Shown here: one piece after another, positions 32,617 through 47,099 of the stretch
How positions within the stretch are numbered: the first letter of the stretch is position 1
Layout of the letters: each line of letters begins with the position of its first letter
Origin: Gammaproteobacteria bacterium
GTDB lineage: Bacteria > Pseudomonadota > Gammaproteobacteria > GCA-001735895
Reading direction: 5' to 3'
NCBI GenBank assembly: GCA_052030825.1
Contig: JBPEYE010000029.1
Span: forward strand, 1 to 47,099
Length of the DNA: 47,099 bases
Position numbers and translations under genes: made by a program
Notes under the pieces: generated by a model
Seen by the model: only the letters and a program-made list of their open reading frames with translations
What the model was told of the DNA's origin: nothing
The model's database searches: none

Positions 32617-33408
32617 TTGTCTGGTCACGTCGCAAAAACCGAGCAGCAATCCCCAGTCAGCTTCCAAATATGTAGCAACGGTGTCACCCACACCGGCCAC
32701 GTCAGAACAAGAAACGAAGATTCGATTCTGGTGCATGCCGACGAGAACGTCTGGATCGTCGCCGACGGTATGGGCGGACATCACGCCGGCGATTTCGCGA
32801 GCCAGACGATCACCAACAACCTGAGCCTGTTCAAGCAGCACGCGTCGCTCGAAGACAACATTTTGCTGCTCGAGGAAAACATCCTCAATTCGAACTCCAT
32901 CATTCGAAAAAAATCCTTTAAACTGGGTCGCAACGCGACGATCGGCAGCACCATCGTTTGCGTTTACGTCTGGCACAACCTGATGTTCGTGCTCTGGGCG
33001 GGCGATAGCCGACTCTATCGATACAGGGACGGCAAGCTGGAACGCTTGACTGAAGACCATAGTTACGTCGAGGAACTGGTCAGAATGGGAAAAATCGAAG
33101 CGCGCGATGCCGAGGAACATCCCGCGGCGAACGTCGTGCTCAAGGCGGTCGGCATCGACGATCGCCTGTGCATGGATCTCGAATACTACGAACTCCAGGA
33201 CGGCGATATCTACGTTATCTGCTCCGACGGTCTCTACAAGGATCTGGAAGAACGGAAAATAACGCCTATTATTGAATCCCATCCGGAAGATATGAACGAG
33301 CTGTCGCAAGCCCTGCTGGCATCGGCGCTCGACGCCGGCGGAACCGACAACACGTCAATCATCACGCTGAAATCCTGCCAGAAGGTAAACGATGTCCCAG
33401 GTCTGTGA
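32617..33408 (+). CDS. PP2C-family Ser/Thr protein phosphatase
   Basis: TTG start 5 nt after GAAGGAG. Motifs: VADGMGGHHAGDFAS, GSTIV, WAGDSRLY, EDHS, ICSDGLY and GGTDNTSII. The 3' end overlaps the kinase start by 17 nt. Confidence 0.85.
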   Translation: MSGHVAKTEQQSPVSFQICSNGVTHTGHVRTRNEDSILVHADENVWIVADGMGGHHAGDFASQTITNNLSLFKQHASLEDNILLLEENILNSNSIIRKKSFKLGRNATIGSTIVCVYVWHNLMFVLWAGDSRLYRYRDGKLERLTEDHSYVEELVRMGKIEARDAEEHPAANVVLKAVGIDDRLCMDLEYYELQDGDIYVICSDGLYKDLEERKITPIIESHPEDMNELSQALLASALDAGGTDNTSIITLKSCQKVNDVPGL

Positions 33409-35368
33409 ATCGCTGATCAACGACTATCTGGCGGGCGCGCTCAACATCCACGATCTCGAGCAAGGGCTGGCCAGTCTCTTCGATGCCATGCCGCAAGGCC
33501 ACGTGCAGGCACAGACTTACCTGCAGTCGCTCTACACCAAGGACAAGATCGATTCCGACGGTTTTACCCAGATTTCGCAGGTCATTTCCAAGGTCAACAT
33601 CCAGGCGACGCTGAAAAGCAGTCCCGAGCCCGACATCTCCTATTTCGGCGACGACCGGACCATGCACCTGACCGACCTCGAGGAAGACGACAGCAACGAC
33701 AAGACCGTCATCGTCAGCGTCGGCAAGAGCGATGCCGACAGCATCGAACAGTCGCAACCCTCGCTCGACCCCCAGGACCTTGCGGCCAGCGATCCGAAAA
33801 TCATCGATAAACCGCACAAATCGAGTCGCTACGAAAACCTCGGACCGGGAGTCACGCTGAAGGAAAGGTTCGTGTTGCTTGAAAAACTCGGCCAGGGCGG
33901 CATGGGCGTGGTGTTCAAGGCCAAGGATCTGCTCAAGGTCGAGGCCAAGGACAAGGATCCCTACGTCGCGATCAAGGTGCTGACCGATGCTTTCAAAAAG
34001 TACTCGGGTTCGTTTATCGCGCTGCAGCGCGAAGCCAGCAAGGCGCAACGCCTGGCGCACCCGAATGTTGCGACCGTCTACGACTTCGACCGCGACGGCA
34101 ACACGGTCTTCATGACCATGGAGTTCCTGCAGGGCAAGCCGCTCAATCAGCTGATCAAGGAAATCTCGAAAAAGCCGCTGAAAATGGACCATGCCCTGCA
34201 TATCATCGACGAGCTTTGCAGCGGCCTGGCCTATGCGCACGAAAAGCAGCTCATCCATTCCGATTTCAAGCCGGGCAACTGTTTTCTGCTCAATGACGGC
34301 CACGTAAAGCTGCTCGATTTCGGCATTGCGCGCGCCAGCACCGCGCCCGACGAGGAGCGCGAAGCGACGATGTTCGACCCGGCCAAGCTCAGCGCGGTAA
34401 CGCCGGCCTACGCGACGCCGGAAATGTTTGCCGGCATGAACCCCGACCCGCGCGACGATATCTACGGTCTCGCCTGCGTCGCTTACCAGTTGCTCGCCGG
34501 CGGCAAACACCCCTATAACAAGGTCGCTTCGCCGAAAATCAAGGAACTCGGAATCAAGCCGAAACCGATCAAGGGGCTCAACCGGCGCCAGCAGAAGACC
34601 CTGATGAAGGCCCTGTCGGTCGTCCGCGAAGACCGCATCGACAGCGTCGCCAAGTTTGCCGAAGGCATGCGCGTGCGGAAATCGCACAGCAAGACGATCC
34701 TGCTCGGTTTCCTGTTTCTGCTGATTATCGGCGCCGGCATCGGCTACAGACCGTTCATGGCCTTCCAGGCCGAGCAGGCGCTGTACGACAAGATTCAGCG
34801 CATCAAGAACGGCGACAAGGCGCTGATGATCGAAACCATCTGGGGCCTCGACCAGATGGATGCCGAGCAGCAGAAAATCATCTCGGTCGGGCTGCGGCGC
34901 GAGATCATCACCTTTTACCGCGATCGGATTCGTTCGGTCTTTCTGCCCAAGGAAGGCCTCTACGATTACCCGCAGGCGCAAAGCCTGCTGGCCCAGGCCA
35001 AGCGCCACTATCCCGATTCGGTCGCGCTGTCGACCATCGAGGACCAGGTCAAGGAACAGCGCGATCGGCTGATGACGAGCCTGATCTCGCTCTACAAGCG
35101 ATATCTCGCCGAGAAAAAGCTGATCAAAACCCCGAGTGGCGAGGACTTGACGACCGTCATTCCGCTGATCAAGCGGGTCGATCCCAAGCACTACCTGCTG
35201 AAGGACAAGGAGCTTGCCGACCTCTACTTGTCCGAGGCGGAAAAGCTGATTGCCCGGCGGCAGTATGGCGAAGCCTCCAACTACATCGTCACCGGGCTCA
35301 AGATTTTTCCTGAAGACACCCGCTTGCAGAGCCTCAACAAGCAAATCAACGCGCAGAAGCTCGAGTGA
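33392..35368 (+). CDS. Hanks-type Ser/Thr protein kinase, non-RD, with one TM helix and a helical/TPR-like C-terminal domain
   Basis: 658 aa. Motifs: GQGGMGVVFKA, VAIKVL, catalytic loop IHSDFKPGN (HSD at 34256-34264, not HRD), LLDFGIA and TPAYATPEM. TM helix ILLGFLFLLIIGAGIGY, followed by about 200 aa of helical sequence. Confidence 0.9.
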   Translation: MSQVCESLINDYLAGALNIHDLEQGLASLFDAMPQGHVQAQTYLQSLYTKDKIDSDGFTQISQVISKVNIQATLKSSPEPDISYFGDDRTMHLTDLEEDDSNDKTVIVSVGKSDADSIEQSQPSLDPQDLAASDPKIIDKPHKSSRYENLGPGVTLKERFVLLEKLGQGGMGVVFKAKDLLKVEAKDKDPYVAIKVLTDAFKKYSGSFIALQREASKAQRLAHPNVATVYDFDRDGNTVFMTMEFLQGKPLNQLIKEISKKPLKMDHALHIIDELCSGLAYAHEKQLIHSDFKPGNCFLLNDGHVKLLDFGIARASTAPDEEREATMFDPAKLSAVTPAYATPEMFAGMNPDPRDDIYGLACVAYQLLAGGKHPYNKVASPKIKELGIKPKPIKGLNRRQQKTLMKALSVVREDRIDSVAKFAEGMRVRKSHSKTILLGFLFLLIIGAGIGYRPFMAFQAEQALYDKIQRIKNGDKALMIETIWGLDQMDAEQQKIISVGLRREIITFYRDRIRSVFLPKEGLYDYPQAQSLLAQAKRHYPDSVALSTIEDQVKEQRDRLMTSLISLYKRYLAEKKLIKTPSGEDLTTVIPLIKRVDPKHYLLKDKELADLYLSEAEKLIARRQYGEASNYIVTGLKIFPEDTRLQSLNKQINAQKLE

Positions 35369-35640
35369 TGGAACAGCACGGCACCCCGCTGCGAGTCCTG
35401 GCCAAGACCTACGCCAACGATCTGATTTCGCGCGAACAATACGTCGAAATACGCTCGCAGTTGCTCAAGAAGCTGCAAACCAAGGGCCGCATCGACGAAT
35501 CCGACCTGAAAAATTTCACCGCCATCACGCGCGAAACCGAGGCGCCGCGGGTGCGCAAGTCCTACACCTCGTCTGACTGGATCATCATCGCCCTGGGCCT
35601 GGCCGCATCGGCGGTGCTCGCCTTCGTCCTGTACGGCTGA
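35368..35640 (+). CDS. SHOCT-like, C-terminally anchored small membrane protein (hypothetical)
   Basis: The ATG overlaps the kinase TGA (GTGATGG). LAKTYANDLISREQYVEIRSQLLKKL resembles the SHOCT motif. C-terminal TM helix WIIIALGLAASAVLAFVLY. Confidence 0.5.
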   Translation: MEQHGTPLRVLAKTYANDLISREQYVEIRSQLLKKLQTKGRIDESDLKNFTAITRETEAPRVRKSYTSSDWIIIALGLAASAVLAFVLYG

Positions 35641-35752: not shown

Positions 35753-35903
35753 ACACTAAAACTTAACTTTATTTATTAAAAGCCAACCGGCGCTGCCGTA
35801 ATTTGCCAGAAATGTTAGGCAAGTCTCCGTCCGCCGGTTTGCCGGACGGTAGGCTCGACGGCGCAAGATTCGGCAATTGCCGGAAGGTCGACAACTCCAT
35901 CGA

Positions 35904-38084
35904 ATGGGAACGGGAATGATCGCAGGTAACGGTCGCGGCTCGATATTGGCGCAATGGACCACGGGAATGATCCTGTGGCTCGGCTCGCTATTGCCCGCCG
36001 CCGCGCTCGACATGACCGACATGCTCGTCGATTCGATCAGCGCGCATCCCGAGGTCAAGGAAAAAATCCACGTCTATCGACAGGCGGTCGGCGATCAGCG
36101 AATCGCGGAGAGCGGCTGGCGCCCGAGCGTCGATATCGAGGCCTCGACCGGGACTTTCGATACCGACTCGCCGGCGACCGGCAACACCTCGGTCGACTAC
36201 GAAAGTTCGGTGGTTGAACTGTCGGTGACGCAAAACCTGTTCAATGGCTTTGACACGACGTTTCAGCTCGAGCAAACCAGCGCACGCGCGCGCGCGGCGC
36301 TGTTCGACATTTACGATACCGCGGACAACATCGCGCTGCGGGCGGTCCAGGCCTATCTCGACGTCCTCAAGCAGCGGCGATTGCTGCAGCTGGCCCAGGA
36401 AAACGTCGACGCGCACGAAGAAATTCTCTCCCGGATTCGGGAACGCAACCTGTCGGGCGTCGGTCGACGCTCGCAGCTGCAGCAGACCGAGGGGCGTCTC
36501 GCGCGCGCGCAGGCCAGCCTCGTCGCGCAGCAAAACAATCTCGAGGACGCGGCGACCCGACTGCACGAAGTGCTCGGCCGTTACGTCGATCCGCTCGCAA
36601 TGTCGGCACCGACCCTGCCGCGCCTGCCGGACGCCGATCTCGATACCCTGATCGACCAGGCGCTGGCCAGTCATCCGGCCATGCAGGTGGCCGAGAGCAA
36701 CGTGCTCGCCGCGCAGGCGGATCACCGCCGTTCGTTGCGGACCCGTTATCCCACGGTCGACCTGCGCCTCGCCACCGAACACGGCGACGATATCGGCGGC
36801 CTGCCGGGCAACACCGACGAGACCAGCCTCGTGCTCAATTTCAGCTACAACCTGTATCGCGGCGGGCGCGACCAGGCCGAGCAGCAGAAAAGCATCAGCG
36901 CCGTGTTCGAGCAGAAGGAATTCGCCGCGCGCGTGCGCCGCCAGGTCATCAACACGTTGCGCCTCGCCTGGATCGCGGACACCTCTTTGTCGCGCCAGCT
37001 CGGTTTTCTCGAGACCCACGTGCTCAAGTCCGGCCAGACGGTCGAATCCTATAAAGAGGAATTTTTTATCGGCCAGCGCGATCTGATCGACTTGCTCGAC
37101 GCCGAAAACGAACTCAACAGCGCCAAAAACCAGTTCGCCGAAGCGCGTTTCGATGCGCTGGCGGCGCGATTTCGGGTCTACGAAGGCGTCGGCCAGCTGT
37201 TCGACGCGACCGGCGTCGACTTCGAACTCGGCGATGGGCGCCTGCGGGTCGCACGCCTGGACAGTAACGGTGTCGACCGGCTGCCGATACCGGTCGACGA
37301 GGACGCCGACCGGGAACGCGACCCGATGGATCACTGCGACAATTCGCTGCGCGGCGTCGACGTCAATCCGTTCGGCTGCCTCGAGCCGGTCGAAATCAGC
37401 GTGGTCGCACCGCCGGCGCCACCGCAGAATTCGCCGCCGGAACTCGGCGACGACCAGTTTGAAATCGACACCAACGGCATCCTGGTCCTCACGCCGCAGC
37501 AGCTGCTTGCCAACGATAGCGACGCCGACGGCGATCGTCTCGAGATCGTCGACGTCAGCCAGCCCGAAACCGGGCGTCTCGCGTTCAACCAGAACAGTAA
37601 CCTGGTCTACCGCCCGCTCGAAGGATTCATCGGCGTCGATTCGTTCAAATACACGGTAGCCGACAATCGCGGCGCCTCGGCGACGGCGACCGCAACGGTG
37701 CGCATCAACGTCCGCGAGCCGAAGGTCGTCAGCCTCGACAAAACCCAGCTGGTCAACTTCGAGTACGACGAAGCCGAATTGACCGCGGTATCGAAGGCCA
37801 AGGTTGCCCGCATCATCGAGCGCATCAAACAGGCCGGCGACGTGCAAATCGAAATCTACACCTATACCGACAATATCGGCTCCGATGCCTACAACCTTGC
37901 GCTGTCGCAGCGGCGCGCCGAGGCGCTGCGCAATTTACTGATCCAAAATGGCATCGACCCCGCCGCGATCATCGCAATCGCGATGGGCGAGCAGCAGCCG
38001 ATTGCCGATAACTCGACCGAATCCGGACAGGCGATCAACCGGCGCGGCGAGTTCGTCTTTCGCGCCAGCACGGGGACAGAGTAA
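35904..38084 (+). CDS. lapE: TolC-family T1SS outer-membrane channel (LapE/AggA-like) fused to TSP3-like, cadherin-like and OmpA C-terminal domains
   Basis: 735-aa track ORF from TTG 35877. The ATGs at 35904, 35916 and 35967 are all possible starts and the signal region is unclear. About 430 aa are TolC-like with two repeats (SVDIEASTG...LFNGF...; VDLRLATEHG...NLYRGGRD...). These are followed by DEDADRERDPMDHCDNSLRGVDVNPFGC, then LLANDSDADGDRLEIVDVSQPETGRLAFN...VDSFKYTVADNRGASATATATVRINV, then OmpA_C (IEIYTYTDNIGSDAYNLALSQRRAEALRNLL...INRRGEFVF). Confidence 0.85.
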   Translation: MGTGMIAGNGRGSILAQWTTGMILWLGSLLPAAALDMTDMLVDSISAHPEVKEKIHVYRQAVGDQRIAESGWRPSVDIEASTGTFDTDSPATGNTSVDYESSVVELSVTQNLFNGFDTTFQLEQTSARARAALFDIYDTADNIALRAVQAYLDVLKQRRLLQLAQENVDAHEEILSRIRERNLSGVGRRSQLQQTEGRLARAQASLVAQQNNLEDAATRLHEVLGRYVDPLAMSAPTLPRLPDADLDTLIDQALASHPAMQVAESNVLAAQADHRRSLRTRYPTVDLRLATEHGDDIGGLPGNTDETSLVLNFSYNLYRGGRDQAEQQKSISAVFEQKEFAARVRRQVINTLRLAWIADTSLSRQLGFLETHVLKSGQTVESYKEEFFIGQRDLIDLLDAENELNSAKNQFAEARFDALAARFRVYEGVGQLFDATGVDFELGDGRLRVARLDSNGVDRLPIPVDEDADRERDPMDHCDNSLRGVDVNPFGCLEPVEISVVAPPAPPQNSPPELGDDQFEIDTNGILVLTPQQLLANDSDADGDRLEIVDVSQPETGRLAFNQNSNLVYRPLEGFIGVDSFKYTVADNRGASATATATVRINVREPKVVSLDKTQLVNFEYDEAELTAVSKAKVARIIERIKQAGDVQIEIYTYTDNIGSDAYNLALSQRRAEALRNLLIQNGIDPAAIIAIAMGEQQPIADNSTESGQAINRRGEFVFRASTGTE

Positions 38085-38247
38085 AGCCGGCGCGAGTTTT
38101 ATCAATTGGACTAAACTTGGAGGCAGATGCGGTCGATTGGTAGTCCCCCCTGAACAACCGAATTCCAAGTGCCCTGTTCCGCTCCAGGTTCGCCCGGCGT
38201 ACCGGTCATTTTGAAACCGGCCCGAGCCGCTGCGGAAAGCACGTTTC

Positions 38248-38901
38248 GTGAAGCGGGCGTTCGTCAAGATGGGCGCCCTGCTCGCGCTCAGCATGCCAGG
38301 CAGTCACCACGCAGATCCGTTGATCAGTGAAGATATGTTAGCCCACCTCAACAACCGCTATTCCAGCCAGGCTTACGAACGCGGGCTCGCGGTCAATCGC
38401 CTGCTCGAGCAACTCGAGGGCCGCGATGTCCGGACCCAGCTGGTCGAGGTCAACCGGTTTTTCAATCGCTTTCGCTACCGCGAGGATCATCTTCACTGGG
38501 GACAACAGGACTACTGGGCAACGCCCACCGAGTTCATCGGCACCCACCAGGGGGATTGCGAAGATTTCGTCATCGCCAAGTATTTTGCGCTGCGCAAGAT
38601 CGGCGTACCCGACGAGCGCCTGTACCTGACCTACGTCAAGGCGCTGCGGCAAAACGTCGCGCACATGGTTTTGAGCTACTTTGAAAATCCGAACAGCGTG
38701 CCGTTGATCCTCGATAACTATAATCCCGAGATCCTGCGCGCGACCGAGCGACAGGATCTTCTGCCGGTCTACAGCTTCAATGCCAGATCATTGTTCCTGA
38801 CCAATGCCTCGGCGGGCCTCGGGCGATCGCTGCCCACCGACAAGATCAAGAACAGCAAGTGGCGCAAGCTGCTCGAAGACATTCGCAAGGAACAACCATG
38901 A
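38248..38901 (+). CDS. lapG: LapG-type periplasmic transglutaminase-like cysteine protease (BTLCP, MEROPS C93)
   Basis: GTG start with a signal-like N-terminus. Motifs: YWATPTEFIGTHQGDCEDFVIAKYFALRKIGVPDERLYLTYV (Cys codon 38557-38559), VAHMVLSYF (His), PLILDN (Asp) and LLPVYSFN. Confidence 0.9.
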   Translation: MKRAFVKMGALLALSMPGSHHADPLISEDMLAHLNNRYSSQAYERGLAVNRLLEQLEGRDVRTQLVEVNRFFNRFRYREDHLHWGQQDYWATPTEFIGTHQGDCEDFVIAKYFALRKIGVPDERLYLTYVKALRQNVAHMVLSYFENPNSVPLILDNYNPEILRATERQDLLPVYSFNARSLFLTNASAGLGRSLPTDKIKNSKWRKLLEDIRKEQP

Positions 38902-40823
38902 CCCTGTTCAAACAGATTGCATTACTGGTTTCGATCGTGTTCCTGCTGCTGCTTGCGATCATCGTGGTCAACGATTTGCGGCGCGCGAGCGAATTTCAGC
39001 AGGGCCAGTTGCAAACCACCGCGCAGGACATGGCGACCACGCTCGGCATCGCCATCAGCAACCTGCCACAGGGCAACGACCCGTCAACGCTCGAAGTCCT
39101 GTTCAACGCCGTTTTCGACAGCGGCTATTACACGCGCATCGAACTGGTCGGTACCGACGGCCAGACGATCCACGGCAAGCGCCAGCAAATCGATCTCGAA
39201 CAGGTGCCCGCCTGGTTCGTCGAAACGGTGCCGCTCGACAGTGCCCAGGGTACGACCCGCGTCATGCAGGGCTGGACCCAGCTCGGCGAATTGCGTCTCG
39301 AGTTACACCCGGGTTTCGTTTATCGCGGCCTCTACGAGGGCCTGCTGACGACGCTGCAGAGCTTCGCGTTGCTGTTCGCGGGATCGATACTGGTCCTCTG
39401 GCTGTTGCTGCGTTTCGTGCTCGAACCGCTGCAGCGAGTCAAGGAACAGGCCGATGCAATCCACGCCAACCGCTTCGTTCAACAGGAAAAGATCCCGGCC
39501 ACGGTCGAGCTCAAGCGCGTCGTCGAGGCGATGAACCTGATGGTGACCAAGGTCAAGAGCATCTTCGACGACCAGGAAGCGACGCTGGCGCAGTACCAGC
39601 AAGTACTCTATCGCGACAAGTTGACGAATCTCGGCAACCGCCGTTACCTGCTGGATCAGTTGCAGCAGTCGATGTCCGAGGAATCCGGGCTGCATGGCAG
39701 CATGGCGATCATCAAAATCGGCGATTACGAACACCTGCGCGACCACCAGGGATACGAAATAGCCGACAATCTCGCGCGTATCATCGCCGACTTGTTGCGC
39801 CAGCAGCACGCCGGTATCGAAGCCGAGCGCGCATCGCGCTTCAACGACGACGAGTTCGCTTTTCTGAGCATGGCAGACGAAGTCGCAGTCAGTGACTATA
39901 CGCGCGCCCTGTTCGACGCCTTTGCGGGCCTGGCCGAGCGCGACCCGGCACTTCGCGACGTATCGCTGCATGCCGGAATCTGCACCCTCGAGACCGGGGG
40001 CGAGATCGGCAAGGTGCTCGCCGCTATCGACTACTGCCTGTCGCAAGCCGCGACCCGGGGTCCGTTCGCGATCGAGCGCAAACCGAGCACCGGAATTGAT
40101 CTACCCGAGGGCAAGATGCAGTGGCGCGCCTGGCTCGAGGCGGTGCTCGAATCGAACCAGCTGTTTCTCGTCGGCCAGCTTGCGCTCGGCGACGAAGCTC
40201 GGCCGTACCAGCGCGAACTGTTCGTGCGCGCCCGCAACGCCAAAAACCAGGTGGTGCCCGCATCGGTCTTCATGCCGATGGCAGCGAGTCTCGGCATGTC
40301 GCTGGACATCGACCGCGAGGTTTTTCGCCTGGTCGCGGCCAACAAGACGCTCGACGCCGAAGTGCCGCTGGCAATCAACCTCAGTGCCGCGTTTTTCGAG
40401 CTGGCCGAAGCGCAGGAGGATTTCGACCAGCTCCTGTTCGCCTGCGAACAATCCAATCGCCGGCTCTGCATCGAAGCCAGCCATCCGATCCTGCAGCAGC
40501 ACCCGCTGATGTGCGGCAAGATTTCGGAGCGGGTGCGACGCCACCAGCATCGCTTTGGCATCGACAACCTCGATCTCGGGCTATCGCTGCAGCTGCTGCA
40601 GTCCGGGCAGTTCGACTACGTCAAGATCAATGCGCAGACGCTGCACGCGATGGGCGAGGACGACGCGGCCGCTGGCTTCCAGGCGCTCAAGACGATCACG
40701 GATACGCTGGAGATCGACATCGTGGCGGTCGGCGTCGACTCGCAGGAAGTCTTCGAACGCCTGCGGGCGCTCGGTATCGACATCATGCAGGGTAATTTTC
40801 TCGATTCCCCGGAGCCGATCTAG
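38898..40823 (+). CDS. lapD: LapD-type inner-membrane c-di-GMP receptor (periplasmic LapD_N domain-HAMP-degenerate GGDEF-degenerate EAL)
   Basis: ATG 38898 overlaps the lapG stop (ATGA). TM1 is IALLVSIVFLLLLAIIVV. The periplasmic domain carries GWTQ (39270-39281). TM2 is followed by a HAMP domain. The GGDEF position reads RFNDDEF (39843-39857). The EAL position reads ELF (40215-40223), with IEASH, IDNLDLG and KIN replacing the catalytic EXTE, DDFGTG and KID motifs. Confidence 0.9.
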   Translation: MTLFKQIALLVSIVFLLLLAIIVVNDLRRASEFQQGQLQTTAQDMATTLGIAISNLPQGNDPSTLEVLFNAVFDSGYYTRIELVGTDGQTIHGKRQQIDLEQVPAWFVETVPLDSAQGTTRVMQGWTQLGELRLELHPGFVYRGLYEGLLTTLQSFALLFAGSILVLWLLLRFVLEPLQRVKEQADAIHANRFVQQEKIPATVELKRVVEAMNLMVTKVKSIFDDQEATLAQYQQVLYRDKLTNLGNRRYLLDQLQQSMSEESGLHGSMAIIKIGDYEHLRDHQGYEIADNLARIIADLLRQQHAGIEAERASRFNDDEFAFLSMADEVAVSDYTRALFDAFAGLAERDPALRDVSLHAGICTLETGGEIGKVLAAIDYCLSQAATRGPFAIERKPSTGIDLPEGKMQWRAWLEAVLESNQLFLVGQLALGDEARPYQRELFVRARNAKNQVVPASVFMPMAASLGMSLDIDREVFRLVAANKTLDAEVPLAINLSAAFFELAEAQEDFDQLLFACEQSNRRLCIEASHPILQQHPLMCGKISERVRRHQHRFGIDNLDLGLSLQLLQSGQFDYVKINAQTLHAMGEDDAAAGFQALKTITDTLEIDIVAVGVDSQEVFERLRALGIDIMQGNFLDSPEPI

Positions 40824-40955
40824 CCGAGTTTAAACGCCGAAGATGACTGCCTGTAACTTCAAACTTACGCCATCCGCGCGCGCTCGCATCGCGACCGTTT
40901 GTCACGGCCGCGACGCTCCGCCGCGGATGCGGTTTTTCCTTTCCCGGGTTCCTTC

Positions 40956-43106
40956 ATGATCGATCCGCACCATCAATACGATCCGCTGCTCGAGTGCCTG
41001 GTGATCTTCGCCAAGATCCATAACCGCCCGATCAGCGTCGAAGCCCTGATCGCGGGTCTACCGGTCGAGCCGGGCGCCGACGGACCGGAGCTGTTCAGCA
41101 TCGACAAGCCCAAGGGACTGTTCTCGCGCGTCGCCGCGCGGGCCGGCTTCGCGAGTCGCCTGATTCGGCGTGACCTGAACAGTCTGTCGCGACTGTTGCT
41201 GCCCTGTATCCTCGTCCTGCGCAACGGCAATGCCTGCATCCTCGAAAGTCTCGATCGCAAGCAGCGTCGTGCCAAGGTGATCTTCCCCGAGGTCGGTGAG
41301 GGCGAGGAGTGGCTCGACTTCGAAACGCTCAAGCGCGAGTACCTCGGCTACGCCTTTCTGCTCAAGCGCGAACTGCAGCAGCAAACCCAGAGTCGCGAGC
41401 CGCTGGCGCTCGATTCGAGCCACTGGTTCTGGGGCACGCTGCGCAAATCCCGCGAGATATTCGCCAGCGTGCTGTTGTCGTCGATCCTGATCAACCTGTT
41501 CGTGCTGGCGACGCCGATGTTCACGATGAACGTCTACGACAAGGTCGTGCCCAACGACGCGATCGAAACGCTGTGGGTACTGGCTGCCGGTATCGTCACC
41601 GTATATGCTTTTGACACGGTGCTGCGCTTCGTGCGCAACTACCTGCTCGAGATTGCCGGCAAGAAGAGCGACGTGATCATGTCGTCGCTGCTGTTCTCGC
41701 AGGTACTGAACCTCAAGATGTCGCAATGGCCGCAGAGCGTCGGCGCCTTCGCGAGCCAGCTGCGCGATTTCGAGAGTATCCGCAATTTCTTTACCGCAAC
41801 CACGATGGCGACGCTGGTCGACCTGCCCTTCGCGATTATTTTCCTGTTGGTGATCTACTACATCGGCGGGCCGATGATCGCGGTGCCGCTGATCGTCATC
41901 GCCTTCCTGCTGGCCTACAGCCTGATTCTCGCCAAACCGCTCAAGCAAAGCATCGAGGCAACCTACGAGGCGAGCGCGGCAAAGAACGCTCAGCTGATCG
42001 AAACCCTGCACACGATCAAGACGATCAAGACGCTCGGTGCCGCCAATTACGCGCAATGGGTCTGGGAAGAATCCTCGGGCACGATCGCCGATCGGTCGAT
42101 GCGCGCGCGCACGCTGTCGGCTTCGATCCTGGTGGTCACGAACCTGCTGGTACAGCTCAACACCGTCGGCCTGATCATTTTCGGAATTTACCGCATCAGC
42201 GATCTCGAACTCAGCCTCGGCGGGTTGATCGCCATTGTCATGCTGGCGTCGCGCGCGGTCGCGCCGATGGGCCAGATCGCCGGCCTGATCACGAGCTTCG
42301 AGCAAACCCGCACCGCCTATCGCGCCCTCGACGGCATCATGCAGCAGGAAACCGAGCGGCCGGAGGGCACGTCCTACGTCCGCCGCGCGGCCTTCGAGGG
42401 CGCCATCGAATTCCGCCATGTCGATTTCAGTTATCCCGAGTCGCCGAAAAAATCGCTCGCCGACGTCGGTTTCAGTATCCAGCCCGGAGAACACGTGGGC
42501 ATCATCGGCAAGGTCGGCTCGGGCAAGAGCACGCTGGTCAAGCTCATCATCGGGCTTTACCAGGCTGAAGGCGGTTCGATTTCGATCGACCATATCGACA
42601 TCAACCAGATCGACCCGGCCGACCTGCGCCGTCACGTCGGCTACCTGTCCCAGGATGTCGAGCTGCTGCGCGGCACGATTCGCGACAACCTCGCCTACAA
42701 GGATCTGCACGTCAACGATGAGCGGCTGCTGCAGGCCGCGCGAATCAGCGGCGTCGACCTGTTCGTCAACCGGCTGCCGCAGGGTTTCGACACCCAGATC
42801 GGCGAACAGGGCGCGCTGCTGTCCGGTGGACAGCGCCAGGCGATTGCGCTCGGCCGCGCGGTGTTGCTGAACGAGCCAATCCTGATTCTCGACGAGCCGA
42901 CCAACAGCTTCGACAATACGACGGAATCGGTTGTCAAGCAGCGCCTGTTCGACTATACCCGCGACAAGACCCTGTTGCTGGTCACGCACAAGGCGCCGAT
43001 GCTCGATCTGGTCGAGCGCCTGCTCGTCATCGACGACGGCAAGCTGGTCATGGACGGTCCCAAGGCCGACGTGCTGAACGCGCTCAAAGGTACGCAGAAT
43101 GCATAG
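40956..43106 (+). CDS. lapB: Type I secretion ABC transporter (LapB/LssB-type, N-terminal C39-like domain)
   Basis: ATG 40956 (MIDPHHQYDPLLECLVIFAKIHNRPISVEALIAGLP, a C39-like domain). Six-TM region. Walker A GKVGSGKST, signature LSGGQRQ, Walker B ILILDEPT. Confidence 0.9.
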   Translation: MIDPHHQYDPLLECLVIFAKIHNRPISVEALIAGLPVEPGADGPELFSIDKPKGLFSRVAARAGFASRLIRRDLNSLSRLLLPCILVLRNGNACILESLDRKQRRAKVIFPEVGEGEEWLDFETLKREYLGYAFLLKRELQQQTQSREPLALDSSHWFWGTLRKSREIFASVLLSSILINLFVLATPMFTMNVYDKVVPNDAIETLWVLAAGIVTVYAFDTVLRFVRNYLLEIAGKKSDVIMSSLLFSQVLNLKMSQWPQSVGAFASQLRDFESIRNFFTATTMATLVDLPFAIIFLLVIYYIGGPMIAVPLIVIAFLLAYSLILAKPLKQSIEATYEASAAKNAQLIETLHTIKTIKTLGAANYAQWVWEESSGTIADRSMRARTLSASILVVTNLLVQLNTVGLIIFGIYRISDLELSLGGLIAIVMLASRAVAPMGQIAGLITSFEQTRTAYRALDGIMQQETERPEGTSYVRRAAFEGAIEFRHVDFSYPESPKKSLADVGFSIQPGEHVGIIGKVGSGKSTLVKLIIGLYQAEGGSISIDHIDINQIDPADLRRHVGYLSQDVELLRGTIRDNLAYKDLHVNDERLLQAARISGVDLFVNRLPQGFDTQIGEQGALLSGGQRQAIALGRAVLLNEPILILDEPTNSFDNTTESVVKQRLFDYTRDKTLLLVTHKAPMLDLVERLLVIDDGKLVMDGPKADVLNALKGTQNA

Positions 43107-44469
43107 CGACAACGAAGACCGAACCGACTTCGAAGACACGACGCAGATCGGGGCGCACGGCAAGCAGGATCTCGTTTATATGCGCAGCCTGTCGGCGGCG
43201 GTGGTTCACCGCACGCCGCGTCACCTGATCACCGTCGTCGCGATTCTGGCAATCTTCGTCATCGCGGCGATCGTATGGATGAACTGGGCGAAGATCGATG
43301 TCGTCATCCGGGGCGCCGGCAAGGTCACTCCGGCCAGCCAGGTGCAGAATATCCAGAGTCTCGAGGGTGGCATCGTCGAGGATATCCTCGTCGCCGAGGG
43401 CGAAGTCGTCGACGTCGGTCAACCGCTGCTCAAGATCAGCGACGTCGCCTTTTCGAGCTCGTTCGAGGAAAATCGCCTGCTCTACCTCGAGTTGCTGGCA
43501 CGCGCGAGCCGCCTGAACGCCGAAGCCTTCGACCGTGATTTCGAGCCTCACCCCGAGATACAGCGCGAAGCGCCGGCGCTGCTGCGGTCGGAAAAAAGCC
43601 TCTACGAATCCAATCACCAGCAACTGAAGGAAACGCTCGGCATTCTCGAGGAAAAGATCAACCAGCAGCAGAGCGCGCTGCGCGAGGCGCAGTCGAAGCA
43701 GCGCCAGCTGCGCAGATCGCTCGAACTCGTGCAAAAGGAAATCGAGATCAAGAAGCCGCTGAAGGATCGCGGCATTATCAGCGAAGTCGAGTTTCTGCAA
43801 TTGCAGCAGCGCGAAGCCGAATTCGAGGGCGAGCTCGATGCCGTCAGCCTGTCGATCCCGCGCATCGAGTCGACCATCGAGGAGGCCCGGCTCGCGCGGC
43901 TAAAAGAAAGCCTCGATTTCCAGAACAAGGCGAAAAAAGAGCTCAACGAGGTCAACGCGGAGATTGGTCGTATCCGCGAGGCGCAGACCGCATTGCAGGA
44001 TCGCGTTCGGCGCACGACGCTGCGCTCGCCGGTCAGGGGCGTCGTACAGCGCCTCTACGTCAATACCATCGGCGGCGTCATCAATCCGGGTGGCAATATC
44101 GTCGACATCGTGCCACAGGAAGATTCGCTGCTGGTCGAGGTGCGGATTCAACCGGCTGATATCGGCCACATTCACGTCGGCCAGTTCGCCCGGCTCAAGT
44201 TCTCGGCCTACGATTTCGCGATCCACGGCAGTCTGCAGGGTATCGTCACCTTCGTCAGCGCCGATACCATTACCAACGAAGACGGCGAGAGCTACTTTCT
44301 CGTGCGCGTCAAGCCCAACCGGCTCTATCTCGGCAGCCAGTCCGACGAATTGCCGATCAGGGTCGGCATGACCGCCGAGGCCGACATCATCACCGATAAG
44401 AAAACCATCCTGTCCTATCTCACCGAGCCGGTTCATCGCGGCATCGACAAGGCCCTGCGGGAACGCTGA
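43099..44469 (+). CDS. lapC: HlyD-family type I secretion periplasmic adaptor (LapC-like)
   Basis: 456 aa; overlaps lapB by 8 nt. N-terminal TM helix LITVVAILAIFVIAAIVW, a long coiled coil (QQLKETLGILEEKINQQQSALREAQSKQRQLRRSLELVQKE...), and the C-terminal motif PIRVGMTAEADIITDKKTILSYL. Confidence 0.9.
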   Translation: MHSDNEDRTDFEDTTQIGAHGKQDLVYMRSLSAAVVHRTPRHLITVVAILAIFVIAAIVWMNWAKIDVVIRGAGKVTPASQVQNIQSLEGGIVEDILVAEGEVVDVGQPLLKISDVAFSSSFEENRLLYLELLARASRLNAEAFDRDFEPHPEIQREAPALLRSEKSLYESNHQQLKETLGILEEKINQQQSALREAQSKQRQLRRSLELVQKEIEIKKPLKDRGIISEVEFLQLQQREAEFEGELDAVSLSIPRIESTIEEARLARLKESLDFQNKAKKELNEVNAEIGRIREAQTALQDRVRRTTLRSPVRGVVQRLYVNTIGGVINPGGNIVDIVPQEDSLLVEVRIQPADIGHIHVGQFARLKFSAYDFAIHGSLQGIVTFVSADTITNEDGESYFLVRVKPNRLYLGSQSDELPIRVGMTAEADIITDKKTILSYLTEPVHRGIDKALRER

Positions 44470-45071
44470 TGCGGCTGGTCGTCTACACCGCCCTCCCCGA
44501 CTTCGAGCGCTTCCTCGGCGATCATCTCGATTTGCCGTTCGATTCGCATCCGCAGCTCGGGTCGCCGGACGAAGATCCCGGGTGCATTCACCTGTTACAC
44601 CTGTCAGGCATGGCCGATGCCTGCTACGAGTGGATGCAGCAATACCTTCCCGGCCAGCCGACCCGGGTCGCGCTCTGCTCGGACCGACCCAACCTGCAGG
44701 AAATGCTCGAAGGCGTGCGTCTCGGTGCTCGCGCTTACTGCAACAGCTACATGGCGGCAAACCACTATTACCAGATGCTGCAACTCGTCGAAAGCGGTCA
44801 AAGCTGGTTTCCACCGCAACTGCTCGAGCAAACCTTTGTGCTCGCCCGGCAGGCGGCCGCACGCCCGAAATTCGACCTCAACGCCCTCGCGGACCTGACC
44901 GCTCGCGAGCGTGAAATCGCGCTCGCGGTCGGCGACGGCAAGTCGAATCGCGAGATCGCACAGCAGTTCGAAATCACCGAGCCGACGGTCAAGACGCACC
45001 TCGGTAACATCTTCCGTAAACTCGATCTCAAGGACCGGATCGGTCTCGTTTTGCTGCTCAAACAGAGCTGA
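44469..45071 (+). CDS. LuxR/CsgD/VpsT-family transcription regulator with a pseudo-receiver N-terminal domain
   Basis: The ATG overlaps the lapC TGA by 1 nt. C-terminal HTH: LTAREREIALAVGDGKSNREIAQQFEITEPTVKTHLGNIFRKLDL. The N-terminal domain is collinear with REC but lacks the acidic pair (VVYTAL). His44 sits at the phospho-Asp position (IHLLHLSGM) and there is no conserved Lys (AYCNSYM). Confidence 0.8.
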   Translation: MRLVVYTALPDFERFLGDHLDLPFDSHPQLGSPDEDPGCIHLLHLSGMADACYEWMQQYLPGQPTRVALCSDRPNLQEMLEGVRLGARAYCNSYMAANHYYQMLQLVESGQSWFPPQLLEQTFVLARQAAARPKFDLNALADLTAREREIALAVGDGKSNREIAQQFEITEPTVKTHLGNIFRKLDLKDRIGLVLLLKQS

Positions 45072-45197: not shown

Positions 45198-45210
45198 AAT
45201 TGGCGCGATC

Positions 45211-47099
45211 ATGGCAACGAAAAGCATCGGTTATGTCGTTGAATTATCTGGCGAAGCACAGGTTCGTTCGGTCGACGGGATCATTCGCGTACTGAGCGTC
45301 GGAGACCCGGTACACGAGGGCGATCTGCTAATCACCGGGGTCAATTCACGCATCGTCGTCGAGTTCTTCGACGGCGCGAAACTGCCGCTCGGTGAAAACG
45401 CCGAGGTGCTGCTCGACGAAACGGTTTTCGCCAGCCAGGTCGCGTTTCCGGACGATCGCGTCGCCCAATTGGCCGAGCTTCAAAGCCTGATCGTCGAGGG
45501 CATCGACCTCGCCGAACTCGAAGCCACGGCGGCCGGCGCGGCGCCGGTATTTGCCGACGGCCTGCACCAGGCCTCGATCTACGATCGCGACGGTGACGAA
45601 GGGATCGTCGAGACGCGGCTGACGTCGTTCGGCGTGACCGATTCGGGACAAAGCGGATTCACGACCCTCGACGACGACAATGCCTTGCTCGCCTCCGATT
45701 CGACCGATTCGGGCACGGCGTCGCCGACGATCACGCTTCCGGTAGCGACGATCAGCGTCGATCCGATTACCGCCGACGACATCCTTAATGCCGCCGAGTC
45801 GGGCGGTGTCGTCAACGTGACCGGTTCGGTGAGTGGCGCCGCATCGACCGGCGACGCCATCGATTTCACGGTTAACGGGACGCCCTATTCCGGCGTGGTC
45901 AACGCCGGCAACGTCTTCAGTATCCCGGTTGCCGGCGCGGATCTGGCAGCCGACACCAGTTTCGACGCGTCGGTCAGTGGACTCGACGGATCCGGCAACC
46001 CGTTCGTCGCGATTACCACCTCGACCCACCTGGTCGATACCACCGCAACGGCAACGATCACGCTCGACCCTGATATCACGGCTGACGACATCATAAGCGC
46101 GGCCGAGGCCGGGAGCACCATCGCGATCACCGGCTCGGTTGCCGGTGATTTCCAGGCTGGCGATACGGTCACGCTGACCGTCAACGGCGTCAACACCAGC
46201 GGCGCGGTCGCGGCCGACGGCAGTTTCAGCATTGACGTGCAAGGCAGCGACCTGCGTGACGATCCCGATAGCACCATTGACGCGTCGTTCGTCGCAACCG
46301 ACGCGGCAGGCAACGTGGGCGCAGCGGTTACCGACAGCGAATCCTACTCCGTCGACGTTACCCCGCCGACCGCATCGATCGCGCTGGACCCGAACATCAC
46401 CGCCGACGACATCATCAACGCCGCCGAGGAAGGCGCCAACGTCGCGATAACCGGAACCGTCGGCGGCGACGTTGTCGATGGCGACACGGTTACCCTCACG
46501 ATAAACGGCAACACCTTCACTGGCGCCGTCAACGGCGGCGGATTCAGCATCGACGTGCCCGGTACCGAGCTCACCGCAGATGCGGACCTGACAATCGATG
46601 CCAGCGTCACGACGTCGACCGGCGACGTCAACGGCGAGGCAACCGCGACCGACAGCGAGACCTATTCGGTCGACACCACGGCGAATGCGACGATCACGCT
46701 CGACGCCAATATCACTGCCGATGACATCATCAACGCCGCCGAATCCGGCGGCCCGGTTGCCATTACCGGCACGGTTGCCGGTGATTTCCAGGCGGGTGAC
46801 ATCGTTACCCTGACGGTCAACGGCGTCGACAGTACGGGGGCCGTCGCTGCCGACGGCAGCTTCTCGATCAATGTTGCGGGCAGCGATCTGGCCAACGACC
46901 CCGATCAGACGATCGATGCGTCGTTCGTTGCGACCGACGCGGTCGGCAACGTTGCCGCGCCGGTCACCGATACCGAGTCCTATACGGTCGATACGACGGC
47001 CATCGCTACCATTACGCTCGATGCCAACATCACCGCCGACGACATCATCAACGCCGCTGAAGCGGGTGGCCCGGTTGCGATCACCGGCTCGGTGGCCGG
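45211..47099 (+). CDS. lapA: LapA-like giant repeat adhesin / T1SS substrate, 5' part only (runs off window)
   Basis: The frame is open from ATG 45211 to the window end (629 codons), so it is absent from the ORF track. N-terminal retention-module sequence: [43 protein letters not shown]...[17 protein letters not shown] matches the P. fluorescens LapA cleavage region. Tandem Ig-like repeats follow. Confidence 0.9.
45526..45537 (+). other. LapG-type cleavage motif T-A-A-G (residues 106-109 of the adhesin)
   Basis: acg gcg gcc ggc in frame, in the context [13 protein letters not shown]. The P. fluorescens LapA site is TAAG with cleavage between Ala108 and Ala109. Confidence 0.7.
45745..47099 (+). 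repeat. In-frame tandem repeats of 309-321 bp (103-107 aa) encoding Ig-like adhesin modules
   Basis: The anchor GCYGAYGAC (ADD in [11 protein letters not shown]) recurs at 45772, 46081, 46402, 46717 and 47035, giving periods of 309, 321, 315 and 318 bp. Unit consensus: [103 protein letters not shown]. Confidence 0.9.

What the first reader, a model, noticed from the sequence alone, without database searches (positions are those of the whole stretch)
37284..38084. TolC/LapE channel carries a ~265-aa C-terminal extension: TSP3-like Ca-binding motif + cadherin-like domain + OmpA peptidoglycan-binding domain
After a full TolC-like region (about residues 45-465 of the track ORF), the same frame continues without a stop into three further segments:
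- DEDADRERDPMDHCDNSLRGVDVNPFGC (37296-37379), which resembles the thrombospondin-type-3 / D-x-C-P...GC linker seen ahead of OmpA domains;
- a cadherin/VCBS-like module, LLANDSDADGDRLEIVDVSQ...FKYTVADNRG...VRINV (about 37434-37712);
- a canonical OmpA_C domain, TDNIGSDAYNLALSQRRAEAL...NRRGEFVF (37713-38081).

The C-terminus of TolC lies in the periplasm. The fusion would therefore tether the T1SS exit duct to peptidoglycan and place an Ig/cadherin-like module where the adhesin retention module and LapG act. In Shewanella, as I recall, a separate OmpA-family gene sits next to aggA in the bpfA locus. Here the two appear fused. I know of no functional study of such a fusion.
Basis: partly seen in the sequence, partly recalled or inferred. 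Interest (0 to 1): 0.65.

Follow-up and report, generated by a model that had tools for sequence, protein, structure and literature searches.

The report
TolC adhesin channel fused to peptidoglycan anchor
The outer-membrane exit channel of a giant-adhesin secretion system carries a built-in cell-wall-binding tail that related bacteria encode as a separate neighbouring gene; the fusion is real, conserved in about 60 marine species and apparently unstudied, and it suggests the channel holding the adhesin is bolted to the cell wall.

Summary
One intact gene (35916-38084, +) encodes a TolC-family type I secretion channel. After its last equatorial-domain strands it continues in frame into four segments:
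- a 28-residue acidic two-cysteine repeat;
- a Pro-rich spacer;
- a Big_9/cadherin-like beta-sandwich;
- an OmpA_C peptidoglycan-binding domain.

Contigs from four independent metagenome runs cross the junction without indels. The same fused ORF occurs in 61 reference-genome loci. Most are uncultured marine Gammaproteobacteria, but cultured Zhongshania species also carry it. In 55 of 56 testable loci lapG follows directly, then lapD, ABC, MFP, a LuxR-type regulator and a retention-module giant adhesin.

Salinivibrio, Vibrio, Aliivibrio and Marinomonas have the same operon position split into two genes: TolC, then a small secreted TSP3-repeat + OmpA protein. Published work reports a separate OmpA-like gene at this position in Shewanella (SO4321), needed for biofilm, with its role unknown.

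The window therefore holds a fusion of those two genes plus an inserted cadherin-like domain. The most likely function is to tether the adhesin-holding channel to the cell wall. That is inferred, not shown. I rate it a new variant of a known kind, of moderate interest.

The parts
35916..38084 (+). Fused gene: TolC-family T1SS outer-membrane channel with a C-terminal TSP3-like / cadherin-like / OmpA_C extension. The likely start is the ATG at 35916 (722 aa). The longest ORF runs from the TTG at 35877.
   Evidence: P0001 = 722 aa. The junction is verified in 4 independent runs.
35916..36005 (+). Predicted signal peptide (MIAGNGRGSILAQWTTGMILWLGSLLPAAA | LDM...). Inferred from the sequence and from the conserved A-x-A | L(D/E) boundary in homologues.
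   Evidence: Alignment A1. No signal-peptide predictor was run.
36003..37220 (+). TolC / OEP channel part (two OEP repeats).
   Evidence: TIGR01844 residues 43-448, 276.6 bits against a cutoff of 225.15. Pfam OEP x2. The AF2 model's top Foldseek hits are TolC, ST50 and OprM.
37281..37379 (+). LPxP + a single diverged thrombospondin-type-3-like repeat with two invariant cysteines (DEDADRERDPMDHCDNSLRGVDVNPFGC). Probably Ca-binding and disulfide-bonded. It begins the flexible tether.
   Evidence: D461, E462, D463, D465, D469, D472, C474, D475, N476, G487 and C488 are invariant in 25 sequences. The core D(H/Q)CDN...GC is kept in all distant loci. It aligns in exact register with Pfam-verified TSP3 repeats. 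The Pfam TSP_3 HMM itself is negative. AF2 pLDDT is below 50.
37380..37427 (+). Pro-rich spacer of variable length.
   Evidence: Variable in length and sequence among homologues; Kangiellaceae locus L058 is the longest fused ORF (791 aa, ~40-80 aa above the others) and has a longer spacer. Low pLDDT.
37428..37709 (+). Big_9 / Cadherin_5 ('tandem-95') beta-sandwich with an NDxDxDxD calcium-type motif.
   Evidence: Pfam Big_9 E 1.6e-19 and Cadherin_5 E 1.2e-17. NF012211 tand_rpt_95. The AF2 strands 513-600 have block pLDDT mostly 81-88, with one block at 66. The same repeat type builds giant adhesins.
37758..38042 (+). OmpA_C-like peptidoglycan-binding domain (the whole fold is about 37719-38057).
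   Evidence: Pfam OmpA E 4.3e-21. It aligns end-to-end with the OprF C-domain 5u1h, E 5e-19, with TDxxGSxxYNxxLSxRRA and NRR intact. Foldseek TM is 0.87 to Pal 4g4v. The motif is invariant in A1.
38248..38901 (+). LapG-type periplasmic cysteine protease (BTLCP).
   Evidence: Pfam Peptidase_C93, 54 bits against a cutoff of 27. The best NCBIfam match is LapG, below the equivalog cutoff.
38859..40823 (+). LapD-type c-di-GMP receptor (LapD_MoxY_N + GGDEF + EAL).
40899..43106 (+). T1SS ABC transporter (LssB type).
   Evidence: TIGR03375, 891.6 bits against a cutoff of 693.1.
43099..44469 (+). T1SS membrane-fusion protein (HlyD family).
   Evidence: TIGR01843, 395.7 bits against a cutoff of 208.65.
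44469..45071 (+). LuxR/GerE-type regulator, conserved at this position in all related loci.
   Evidence: Pfam GerE. Synteny.
45208..47099 (+). N-terminus of the giant adhesin (it runs off the window): a LapA-type retention module with a TAAG di-alanine motif, then Ig-like repeats.
   Evidence: NF033682 retention_LapA, 59.9 bits against a cutoff of 50; Ig_like_ice and Ca_tandemer. Translation.

Best explanation
The gene encodes the outer-membrane channel (a LapE/AggA-type TolC-family factor) of a Lap-type type I secretion system. That system exports a giant calcium-dependent adhesin and then retains it at the surface.

In TolC-family proteins the C-terminus emerges in the periplasm, at the equatorial belt of the helical barrel. 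Here it continues into:
- a flexible tether made of one diverged TSP3-type acidic repeat with a probable disulfide, plus a Pro-rich spacer;
- a cadherin-like beta-sandwich;
- an OmpA_C domain that binds peptidoglycan non-covalently.

A channel trimer would therefore carry three cell-wall anchors.

The protein is the fused equivalent of two adjacent genes in the Lap operons of Vibrionaceae and Marinomonas: TolC, then a small secreted TSP3-OmpA protein. According to the literature, Shewanella has the same split arrangement.

The most likely role is to fix the channel to the sacculus. This channel is plugged by the adhesin's retention module and so bears the pull of the surface-bound adhesin. With the anchor, the load would pass to the cell wall rather than to the outer membrane alone, and the channel would stay in register with LapD/LapG.

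Shown: architecture, continuity, conservation, synteny, intact peptidoglycan-binding motif and fold, and the split/fused relationship.
Inferred: peptidoglycan binding itself, periplasmic calcium binding, and the load-bearing purpose.
For: - Domain calls and fold.
- No indel at the junction in four independent runs.
- Conservation: all 120 best clusters share the architecture. 61 of 68 genome loci have one fused ORF, 55 of 56 have lapG immediately downstream, and 41 of 41 have the complete lapG-lapD-ABC-MFP-luxR set.
- The acidic/Cys motif and the OmpA TD..G..N..LS..RA / NRR motif are invariant.
- The adhesin carries a LapA retention module.
- Split equivalents sit at the same operon position: Salinivibrio (TolC/OmpA with a 4-nt overlap; lipobox LLSGC), V. 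fluvialis, A. fischeri and Marinomonas. Their TSP3 repeats align in register with the window motif.
- In fused loci no separate OmpA gene is detected in the operon.
- Deleting the Shewanella stand-alone gene SO4321 lowers biofilm (PMC4523816).
- Analogy: the periplasmic OmpA-like protein TpgA binds the anchor of the trimeric autotransporter adhesin AtaA, and simulations indicate it raises the force needed to extract that anchor (PMC12523085; PMC13082670).
- Established knowledge: TolC termini lie at the periplasmic equatorial domain (1EK9; review PMC8277102).
Against: - There is no experimental datum for this protein or any fused member.
- Pseudomonas LapE and the P. aeruginosa, Arcobacter and Pseudoalteromonas lapGD loci have no adjacent OmpA partner. 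An anchor is therefore not a general requirement of Lap systems.
- The cadherin-like domain is absent from the stand-alone proteins, and its role is unexplained by a simple tether model.
- SO4321's own domain content could not be verified.
- The AF2 model is a monomer, and the linker has low confidence.
- One related locus (L056) keeps the fusion but lacks lapG/lapD.
Confidence: 0.6

Rival explanations
1. Docking or regulatory platform. The conserved cadherin-like domain, with the Ca-binding repeat, binds the adhesin's N-terminal retention module, LapG or the LapD periplasmic domain. The channel itself would then be part of the c-di-GMP/Ca-controlled release switch, and the OmpA domain would only position it.
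For: - The cadherin-like domain is conserved in every fused member, although stand-alone OmpA partners lack it.
- The same repeat type occurs in the N-terminal ~1000 aa of the cognate adhesins in several loci, at 33-39% identity.
- The gene directly precedes lapG in 55 of 56 loci.
- LapG-type proteases are calcium-dependent (established knowledge).
Against: - No interaction evidence exists.
- The domain evolves faster than the TolC part (36-84% against 50-92% identity).
- Big_9 domains are generic spacers in many proteins.
- L056 keeps the domain without lapG/lapD.
Confidence: 0.2
2. Assembly or localisation aid. Peptidoglycan binding serves to place or assemble the T1SS at particular envelope sites, or to thread it through the sacculus. 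This is the role proposed for peptidoglycan-binding modules of other secretion machines. It would not serve to bear load.
For: OmpA_C modules are recurrent in trans-envelope machines: TssL long form, PorE, MotB/MotY and TraB all appear among the NCBIfam matches of the domain. The authors of the Shewanella study speculated that SO4321 helps localise BpfA.
Against: Classical T1SSs assemble without such a module. The fusion and the split partner are specifically linked to retained-adhesin (Lap) operons in all cases seen.
Confidence: 0.15
3. Artefact: a sequencing or assembly frameshift, or a missed stop, joins two separate genes (TolC and an OmpA protein).
For: Split two-gene versions exist in other genera. 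One related contig end (L001) does carry a frameshift in a long-read assembly.
Against: Four independent runs show no indel across 36900-38200. The same single ORF is found in 61 loci from different studies, at 36-84% identity in the extension. The extension has no signal peptide or lipobox of its own.
Confidence: 0.01

Closest known systems
AggA (TolC-like) plus the SO4321/Sputcn32_3595 OmpA-like protein of the Shewanella bpfA operon, and the equivalent TolC + ~200-aa OmpA gene pairs of Salinivibrio, Vibrio fluvialis and Aliivibrio fischeri and the TolC + lipoprotein + TSP3-OmpA trio of Marinomonas
   Same: - Same operon position: T1SS outer-membrane factor, then OmpA module, then lapG/bpfG and lapD/bpfD.
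- Same retained giant adhesin.
- The Vibrionaceae and Marinomonas stand-alone proteins carry the same 28-residue TSP3-type repeat followed by OmpA_C.
- SO4321 is needed for normal biofilm (PMC4523816).
   Different: - Here the two are one polypeptide. The OmpA module has lost its own signal peptide or lipobox.
- A Big_9/cadherin-like domain is inserted between the repeat and OmpA_C.
LapE of Pseudomonas fluorescens (LapEBC T1SS for LapA)
   Same: A TolC-family channel of a T1SS that secretes a retention-module adhesin controlled by LapG/LapD. Here TIGR01844 membership, the operon partners and the retention module are all present.
   Different: LapE is a plain TolC-sized protein with no peptidoglycan-binding extension (my own knowledge). 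The sampled Pseudomonas lapGD locus has no adjacent OmpA gene.
TpgA-AtaA of Acinetobacter sp. Tol 5 (a periplasmic OmpA-like protein bound to the membrane anchor of a trimeric autotransporter adhesin)
   Same: An OmpA_C peptidoglycan-binding module is physically coupled to the outer-membrane anchor of a very large adhesin. A mechanical reinforcement role is proposed (PMC12523085, PMC13082670). The NCBIfam TpgA model is among the matches of the window's OmpA domain.
   Different: It belongs to a different secretion system (type Vc against type I). The complex is non-covalent rather than a fusion, and it has no cadherin-like or TSP3 element.
Peptidoglycan-anchored components of other envelope machines (TssL long form, PorE, MotB/MotY, Pal)
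   Same: The same OmpA_C fold and binding motif, used to fix a trans-envelope machine to the sacculus.
   Different: None of these is an outer-membrane factor of a tripartite or T1SS system. The 2021 Chem Rev review of these systems does not mention OmpA in the 300,000 characters held.
OmpA/OprF-type porins with TSP3 linkers (beta-barrel + TSP_3 + OmpA_C)
   Same: A TSP3-type acidic Cys repeat directly upstream of OmpA_C is a widespread module.
   Different: In those proteins the membrane part is an 8-stranded OmpA-type barrel, not a TolC channel, and they are not linked to T1SS/Lap operons.

Membership tests
TolC family type I secretion outer-membrane protein (TIGR01844 / Pfam OEP) | Scores above the curated family threshold, with two OEP repeats | tested here: met
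   TIGR01844 276.6 bits against 225.15. Pfam OEP 150.2 bits with 2 stretches.
TolC family type I secretion outer-membrane protein (TIGR01844 / Pfam OEP) | TolC fold (beta-barrel strands + long helical barrel + equatorial domain) | tested here: met
   The AF2 model has long helices at 115-179, 185-220, 320-381 and 387-425 and strand pairs. Foldseek's top hits are TolC, ST50 and OprM at E 1e-14 to 1e-16.
TolC family type I secretion outer-membrane protein (TIGR01844 / Pfam OEP) | Encoded with the cognate ABC transporter and membrane-fusion protein | tested here: met
   An LssB-type ABC (TIGR03375) and HlyD (TIGR01843) lie in the same operon. They are conserved in 41 of 41 loci.
TolC family type I secretion outer-membrane protein (TIGR01844 / Pfam OEP) | Forms a trimeric channel that conducts the substrate | not testable with these tools
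   Only a monomer prediction was possible.
OmpA_C-like peptidoglycan-binding domain (PF00691) | Pfam score above the gathering threshold, and the Pal/OmpA-C fold | tested here: met
   75.5 bits against 27.2. TM 0.87 and rmsd 1.4 A to Pal 4g4v.
OmpA_C-like peptidoglycan-binding domain (PF00691) | Conserved Asp and Arg of the TDxxG...LSxxRA motif, and NRR, which contact the diaminopimelate of peptidoglycan in solved complexes | tested here: met
   YTDNIGSDAYNLALSQRRAEAL and NRRGEF are present and align with OprF-C. They are invariant in 25 homologues. The contact role of these residues is from established structural knowledge, not tested here.
OmpA_C-like peptidoglycan-binding domain (PF00691) | Actual binding to peptidoglycan | not testable with these tools
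   Needs a sacculus pull-down.
Big_9 / Cadherin_5 bacterial cadherin-like domain | Pfam score above the gathering threshold, and a beta-sandwich fold | tested here: met
   Big_9 71 bits against 23.6. Cadherin_5 64 bits against 26.5. The AF2 model is all-beta over 513-600, with block pLDDT mostly 81-88 and one block at 66.
Thrombospondin type 3 repeat (PF02412) | Recognised by the Pfam TSP_3 model | tested here: not met
   No hit at E<=10 for residues 452-521.
Thrombospondin type 3 repeat (PF02412) | DxDxDGxxDxxDxC...GC spacing shared with verified repeats | tested here: met
   Exact 28-residue register with the four Marinomonas repeats (TSP_3 51.5 bits against 25) and with the Salinivibrio and V. 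fluvialis repeats. D1, D3, D5, D12, C14, G27 and C28 are shared, and the Gly at position 6 is replaced by Arg. Pairwise BLAST gives 43% identity over 42 aa, E 1.3e-5. I therefore describe it as a diverged TSP3-like repeat, not as a Pfam member.
Lap-type retained-adhesin system (LapA/LapG/LapD) | Adhesin with an N-terminal retention module and a di-alanine LapG site | tested here: met
   NF033682 59.9 bits against 50. A TAAG motif is in the translation. Cleavage itself was not tested.
Lap-type retained-adhesin system (LapA/LapG/LapD) | LapG (BTLCP protease) and LapD (LapD_MoxY_N-GGDEF-EAL) are present | tested here: met
   The Pfam domains are all above threshold. The NCBIfam equivalog cutoffs, which are built on Pseudomonas, are not reached (195.6 of 320; 299.9 of 1020). 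These are family members, not close orthologues.
T1SS-associated stand-alone OmpA protein (SO4321 / Vibrionaceae ~200-aa family) | Located between the T1SS TolC gene and lapG; TSP3-type repeat + OmpA_C | tested here: met
   Positional and domain equivalence.
T1SS-associated stand-alone OmpA protein (SO4321 / Vibrionaceae ~200-aa family) | Independent secreted protein or lipoprotein with its own signal peptide or lipobox | tested here: not met
   Here it is the C-terminal part of the TolC polypeptide, with no signal sequence of its own and with an added cadherin-like domain.

The most novel reading that the evidence does not exclude
The periplasmic cadherin-like domain is not a passive spacer. 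It would be a calcium-dependent docking element that holds the adhesin's retention module (or LapG/LapD) at the mouth of a cell-wall-anchored channel. The outer-membrane factor itself would then be a mechanical and regulatory part of the c-di-GMP-controlled attach/release switch. In that case the stand-alone OmpA partners of Shewanella and Vibrio would be the missing structural component of Lap systems in those genera.
Probability: 0.15. Interest if true: 0.7.

Novelty: new variant of a known kind. Interest (0 to 1): 0.42.

Why it matters
Lap-type systems are the best-understood model of how bacteria attach to and release from surfaces. The current model has the giant adhesin held only by its retention module plugging a TolC-like channel in the outer membrane. 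What holds that channel against the pull of the adhesin has not been addressed.

A conserved covalent fusion of the channel to a peptidoglycan-binding module gives a 'Rosetta-stone' argument. It implies that the small OmpA-like proteins encoded next to the channel gene in Vibrionaceae and Marinomonas, and the OmpA-like SO4321 at the same position in Shewanella, work physically with the channel. One of them, SO4321, has a biofilm phenotype but no assigned role. The fusion turns that open point into a directly testable hypothesis.

It also adds type I secretion to the list of envelope machines with a built-in cell-wall anchor. Cultured carriers (Zhongshania) make experiments feasible.

Tried and rejected
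- (1) Stand-alone versions sought by homology to the extension. All the short hits I read were contig-truncated fragments that begin inside the fused protein's own sequence. The one candidate on a long contig (P0157/L001) is a contig-end copy with a tandem (cadherin-OmpA)x2 module and a frameshift, not a clean split gene.
- (2) Exhaustive profile search with the extension. The best 150 were all giant adhesins with 15-58 tandem Big_9 repeats, so it said nothing about fused versus stand-alone frequency.
- (3) Pfam TSP_3 on the linker: no hit. The label was rescued only by register alignment with verified repeats.
- (4) tblastn of the extension against plasmids: only generic cadherin-like or OmpA hits, none covering 80% or more.
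- (5) The profile of three stand-alone OmpA proteins against the big protein collection. It returned generic barrel-TSP3-OmpA porins and the Vibrionaceae ~200-aa family. No Shewanella protein appeared, and none of the top 120 had an OEP domain. SO4321's make-up stays unverified.
- (6) Literature searches for the fusion or for peptidoglycan anchoring of LapE: nothing.
- (7) L066 looked like an unfused TolC. It is a truncated gene joined to an unrelated RTX-type ORF on a 4-kb MAG contig.
- (8) The frameshift/artefact reading is rejected.
Full report
**1. What is in the sequence**

The + strand carries one uninterrupted ORF from 35877 to 38084 (735 aa from the furthest upstream TTG). The gene caller's product starts at the ATG at 35916 and is 722 aa (P0001). 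A signal-peptide-like N-terminus ends at a conserved A-x-A | L-D/E boundary.

Domain calls, in ORF numbering:
- Pfam finds two OEP repeats, a Big_9/Cadherin_5 domain (518-611) and an OmpA domain (628-722). All are far above their gathering scores.
- NCBIfam places residues 43-448 in TIGR01844, the type I secretion TolC subfamily, above its curated cutoff.

**2. Is the fusion real?**

Contigs from four independent marine-sediment runs cover 36900-38200 with a handful of substitutions and no insertion, deletion or joint. One contig spans 37068-38099.

All 120 best homologue clusters (62-100% identity, 684-755 aa) have the same five Pfam domains.

A scan of one genome per species returned 69 loci. 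I labelled their stop-to-stop ORFs and analysed 68 of them:
- In 61 loci the TolC part (50-92% identity) and the extension (36-84%) lie in one ORF.
- Six of the other seven are cut by a contig end.
- One (L066) is a truncated gene joined to an unrelated RTX ORF.

The fusion is therefore genuine and under purifying selection.

Most carriers are uncultured marine and sediment Gammaproteobacteria. They also include cultured Zhongshania borealis and Z. guokunii (Cellvibrionales, Spongiibacteraceae), plus Litorivivens, Kangiellaceae and 'Thiotrichales' MAGs.

**3. Context**

In the window the gene is followed by:
- a LapG-type protease (38248-38901);
- a LapD-type receptor (38859-40823);
- an LssB-type ABC transporter (40899-43106);
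- a HlyD-type adaptor (43099-44469);
- a LuxR/GerE regulator (44469-45071);
- the start of a giant adhesin (from 45208). Its N-terminus passes NCBIfam's retention_LapA model and contains a TAAG motif.

Across related loci, lapG follows the fused gene directly in 55 of 56 loci with enough DNA. All 41 loci with at least 7.6 kb downstream have lapG, lapD, ABC, MFP and luxR. This is a Lap-type retained-adhesin operon, and the fused protein is its only outer-membrane factor.

**4. Anatomy of the extension**

The AF2 model (25-sequence alignment, mean pLDDT 73) gives:
- a confident TolC body;
- two short equatorial strands (436-445, P0001 numbering);
- a low-confidence stretch, 453-504;
- a confident beta-sandwich (513-600);
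- a confident alpha/beta domain (611-717).

Foldseek matches the body to TolC/OprM. It matches the last domain to Pal and OprF-C at TM about 0.87.

The low-confidence stretch is not poorly conserved. LPxPxDEDxDxxxDxxDxCDN...GC is almost invariant, both cysteines included. The core D(H/Q)CDN...GC persists in the most distant loci. It is followed by a Pro-rich spacer of variable length.

The OmpA domain aligns end-to-end with the OprF C-terminal domain. It keeps the TDxxGSxxYNxxLSxRRA and NRR motifs, and these are invariant in the family.

**5. The split counterpart**

In Shewanella, SO4321/Sputcn32_3595 is a separate OmpA-like gene between aggA and bpfG. It is part of the seven-gene bpfA operon. 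Its deletion reduces biofilm, and the authors state that its role is unknown (PMC4523816 and PMC3672883).

Using LapG as a probe against annotated records and assemblies, I found the same arrangement elsewhere:

| Organism | Arrangement |
|---|---|
| Salinivibrio proteolyticus | TolC, then a 202-aa OmpA lipoprotein overlapping by 4 nt, then LapG-LapD-ABC |
| Vibrio fluvialis | TolC, then a 208-aa OmpA protein |
| Aliivibrio fischeri | OEP-OmpA two-gene unit beside the Lap genes |
| Marinomonas | TolC, LptE-like lipoprotein, 294-aa OmpA protein, then LapG-LapD-ABC-MFP-regulator |

These stand-alone proteins consist of a signal peptide or lipobox, one to four TSP3 repeats and OmpA_C. Pfam TSP_3 scores 51.5 bits in Marinomonas.

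Their 28-residue repeats align in exact register with the window's DEDADRERDPMDHCDNSLRGVDVNPFGC. Pfam's TSP_3 model does not call the window motif itself.

None of the stand-alone proteins has a cadherin-like domain. The window protein is therefore TolC + (TSP3-OmpA protein minus its own export signal) + an inserted Big_9 domain. No separate OmpA gene is detectable in the fused operons.

Other Lap loci have no OmpA partner nearby: P. aeruginosa, Arcobacter and Pseudoalteromonas.

**6. Mechanism**

The C-terminus of TolC-family proteins lies in the periplasm, at the equatorial belt of the helical barrel (1EK9; review PMC8277102). A flexible tether of about 50 residues, a beta-sandwich and an OmpA_C domain attached there can reach the peptidoglycan layer. 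A trimer would carry three such anchors.

In the Lap model the adhesin stays at the surface because its folded N-terminal retention module cannot pass the channel. The channel therefore bears whatever force the surface-bound adhesin transmits.

I consider it most likely (0.6) that the extension fixes this channel to the sacculus. That would pass the load to the cell wall and keep the channel in place relative to LapG/LapD.

A documented analogue is TpgA, an OmpA-like periplasmic protein that binds the membrane anchor of the trimeric autotransporter adhesin AtaA. Simulations indicate that it roughly doubles the force needed to extract that anchor (PMC12523085; PMC13082670).

Peptidoglycan binding, calcium binding and the load-bearing purpose are all inferred. 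The role of the cadherin-like domain is open. It may be a rigid calcium-stiffened spacer, or it may be a docking site for the retention module, LapG or LapD. The second option is my main rival explanation and the most novel reading.

**7. Novelty and verdict**

The proteins are already in public databases under automatic names ('TolC family outer membrane protein', 'adhesin transport system outer membrane protein'). I found no paper that describes the fusion or a peptidoglycan anchor on a T1SS outer-membrane factor. The 2021 Chem Rev review does not mention OmpA in the 300,000 characters held.

All the components and the general principle are known: envelope machines with OmpA_C anchors, and an OmpA-like gene beside aggA. 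I therefore rate this as a new variant of a known kind, of moderate interest.

Its main value is as a natural fusion. It argues that the T1SS-associated OmpA proteins of Vibrionaceae and Marinomonas, and the OmpA-like SO4321 at the same position in Shewanella, act on the channel itself, and cultured carriers exist for testing that.

Noticed in passing
window 32617-35368 (+): A PP2C-type phosphatase (32617-33408) and a Hanks-type Ser/Thr kinase (33392-35368) lie directly upstream of the fused gene. The pair is syntenic in the closer relatives (TolC part 68-92% identical; e.g. L002-L018, L022, L056, L064). It is absent upstream in the more distant loci. It may add a phospho-regulatory input to this Lap operon.
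   Followed up: partly
window 35365-35640 (+): A 91-aa ORF overlaps the kinase stop codon. It has a hydrophobic C-terminal segment (WIIIALGLAASAVLAFVLYG) and no Pfam match. It may be a small membrane-anchored partner of the kinase, or not a gene at all.
   Followed up: partly
window 45208-47099 (+): Start of the giant adhesin: a LapA-type retention module (NF033682), a TAAG di-alanine motif, then Ig_like_ice/Ca_tandemer repeats like those of the Marinomonas ice-binding adhesin. The gene runs off the window end. A related locus has a 5583-aa product (L001).
   Followed up: partly
window 44469-45071 (+): A LuxR/GerE-type regulator lies between the MFP gene and the adhesin gene. It is conserved at this position in all 41 complete related loci and also in the split Marinomonas operon. 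It has no recognisable receiver domain in Pfam.
   Followed up: partly
L001:2-1318 (ENA contig end, 740-kb contig): A relative carries a tandem duplication of the module (cadherin-like + OmpA, twice) ahead of lapG. There is an apparent frameshift in the first OmpA copy of a long-read assembly. The TolC part would lie beyond the contig end.
   Followed up: partly
L073:7096-7950 and L082:3039-3893 (Marinomonas): In the split Marinomonas operons a 284-aa lipoprotein lies between the TolC gene and the TSP3-OmpA gene. It has a weak LptE-like match (Pfam LptE E 1.3e-6) and is annotated 'LptE'. It is a third envelope component, absent from the fused and the Vibrionaceae versions.
   Followed up: no
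L025, L034, L035, L036, L038, L042, L050, L059 (adhesin ORFs starting ~19,000): The first ~1000 residues of the cognate adhesins contain a domain 33-39% identical to the extension's cadherin-like domain. This raises the possibility that the channel's periplasmic domain was captured from the adhesin, or mimics one of its domains. There is no baseline against unrelated Big_9 domains.
   Followed up: no
L056:9908-16321: One relative keeps the fused TolC-cadherin-OmpA gene, but it is followed directly by the ABC transporter. lapG and lapD are missing from the operon.
   Followed up: partly
window 38859-38901: The longest LapD ORF overlaps the end of lapG. An internal ATG (MTLFKQ...) at about 38898 would overlap the lapG stop codon, suggesting translational coupling of lapG and lapD. 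The ABC/MFP (43099-43106) and MFP/luxR (44469) junctions overlap in the same way.
   Followed up: no
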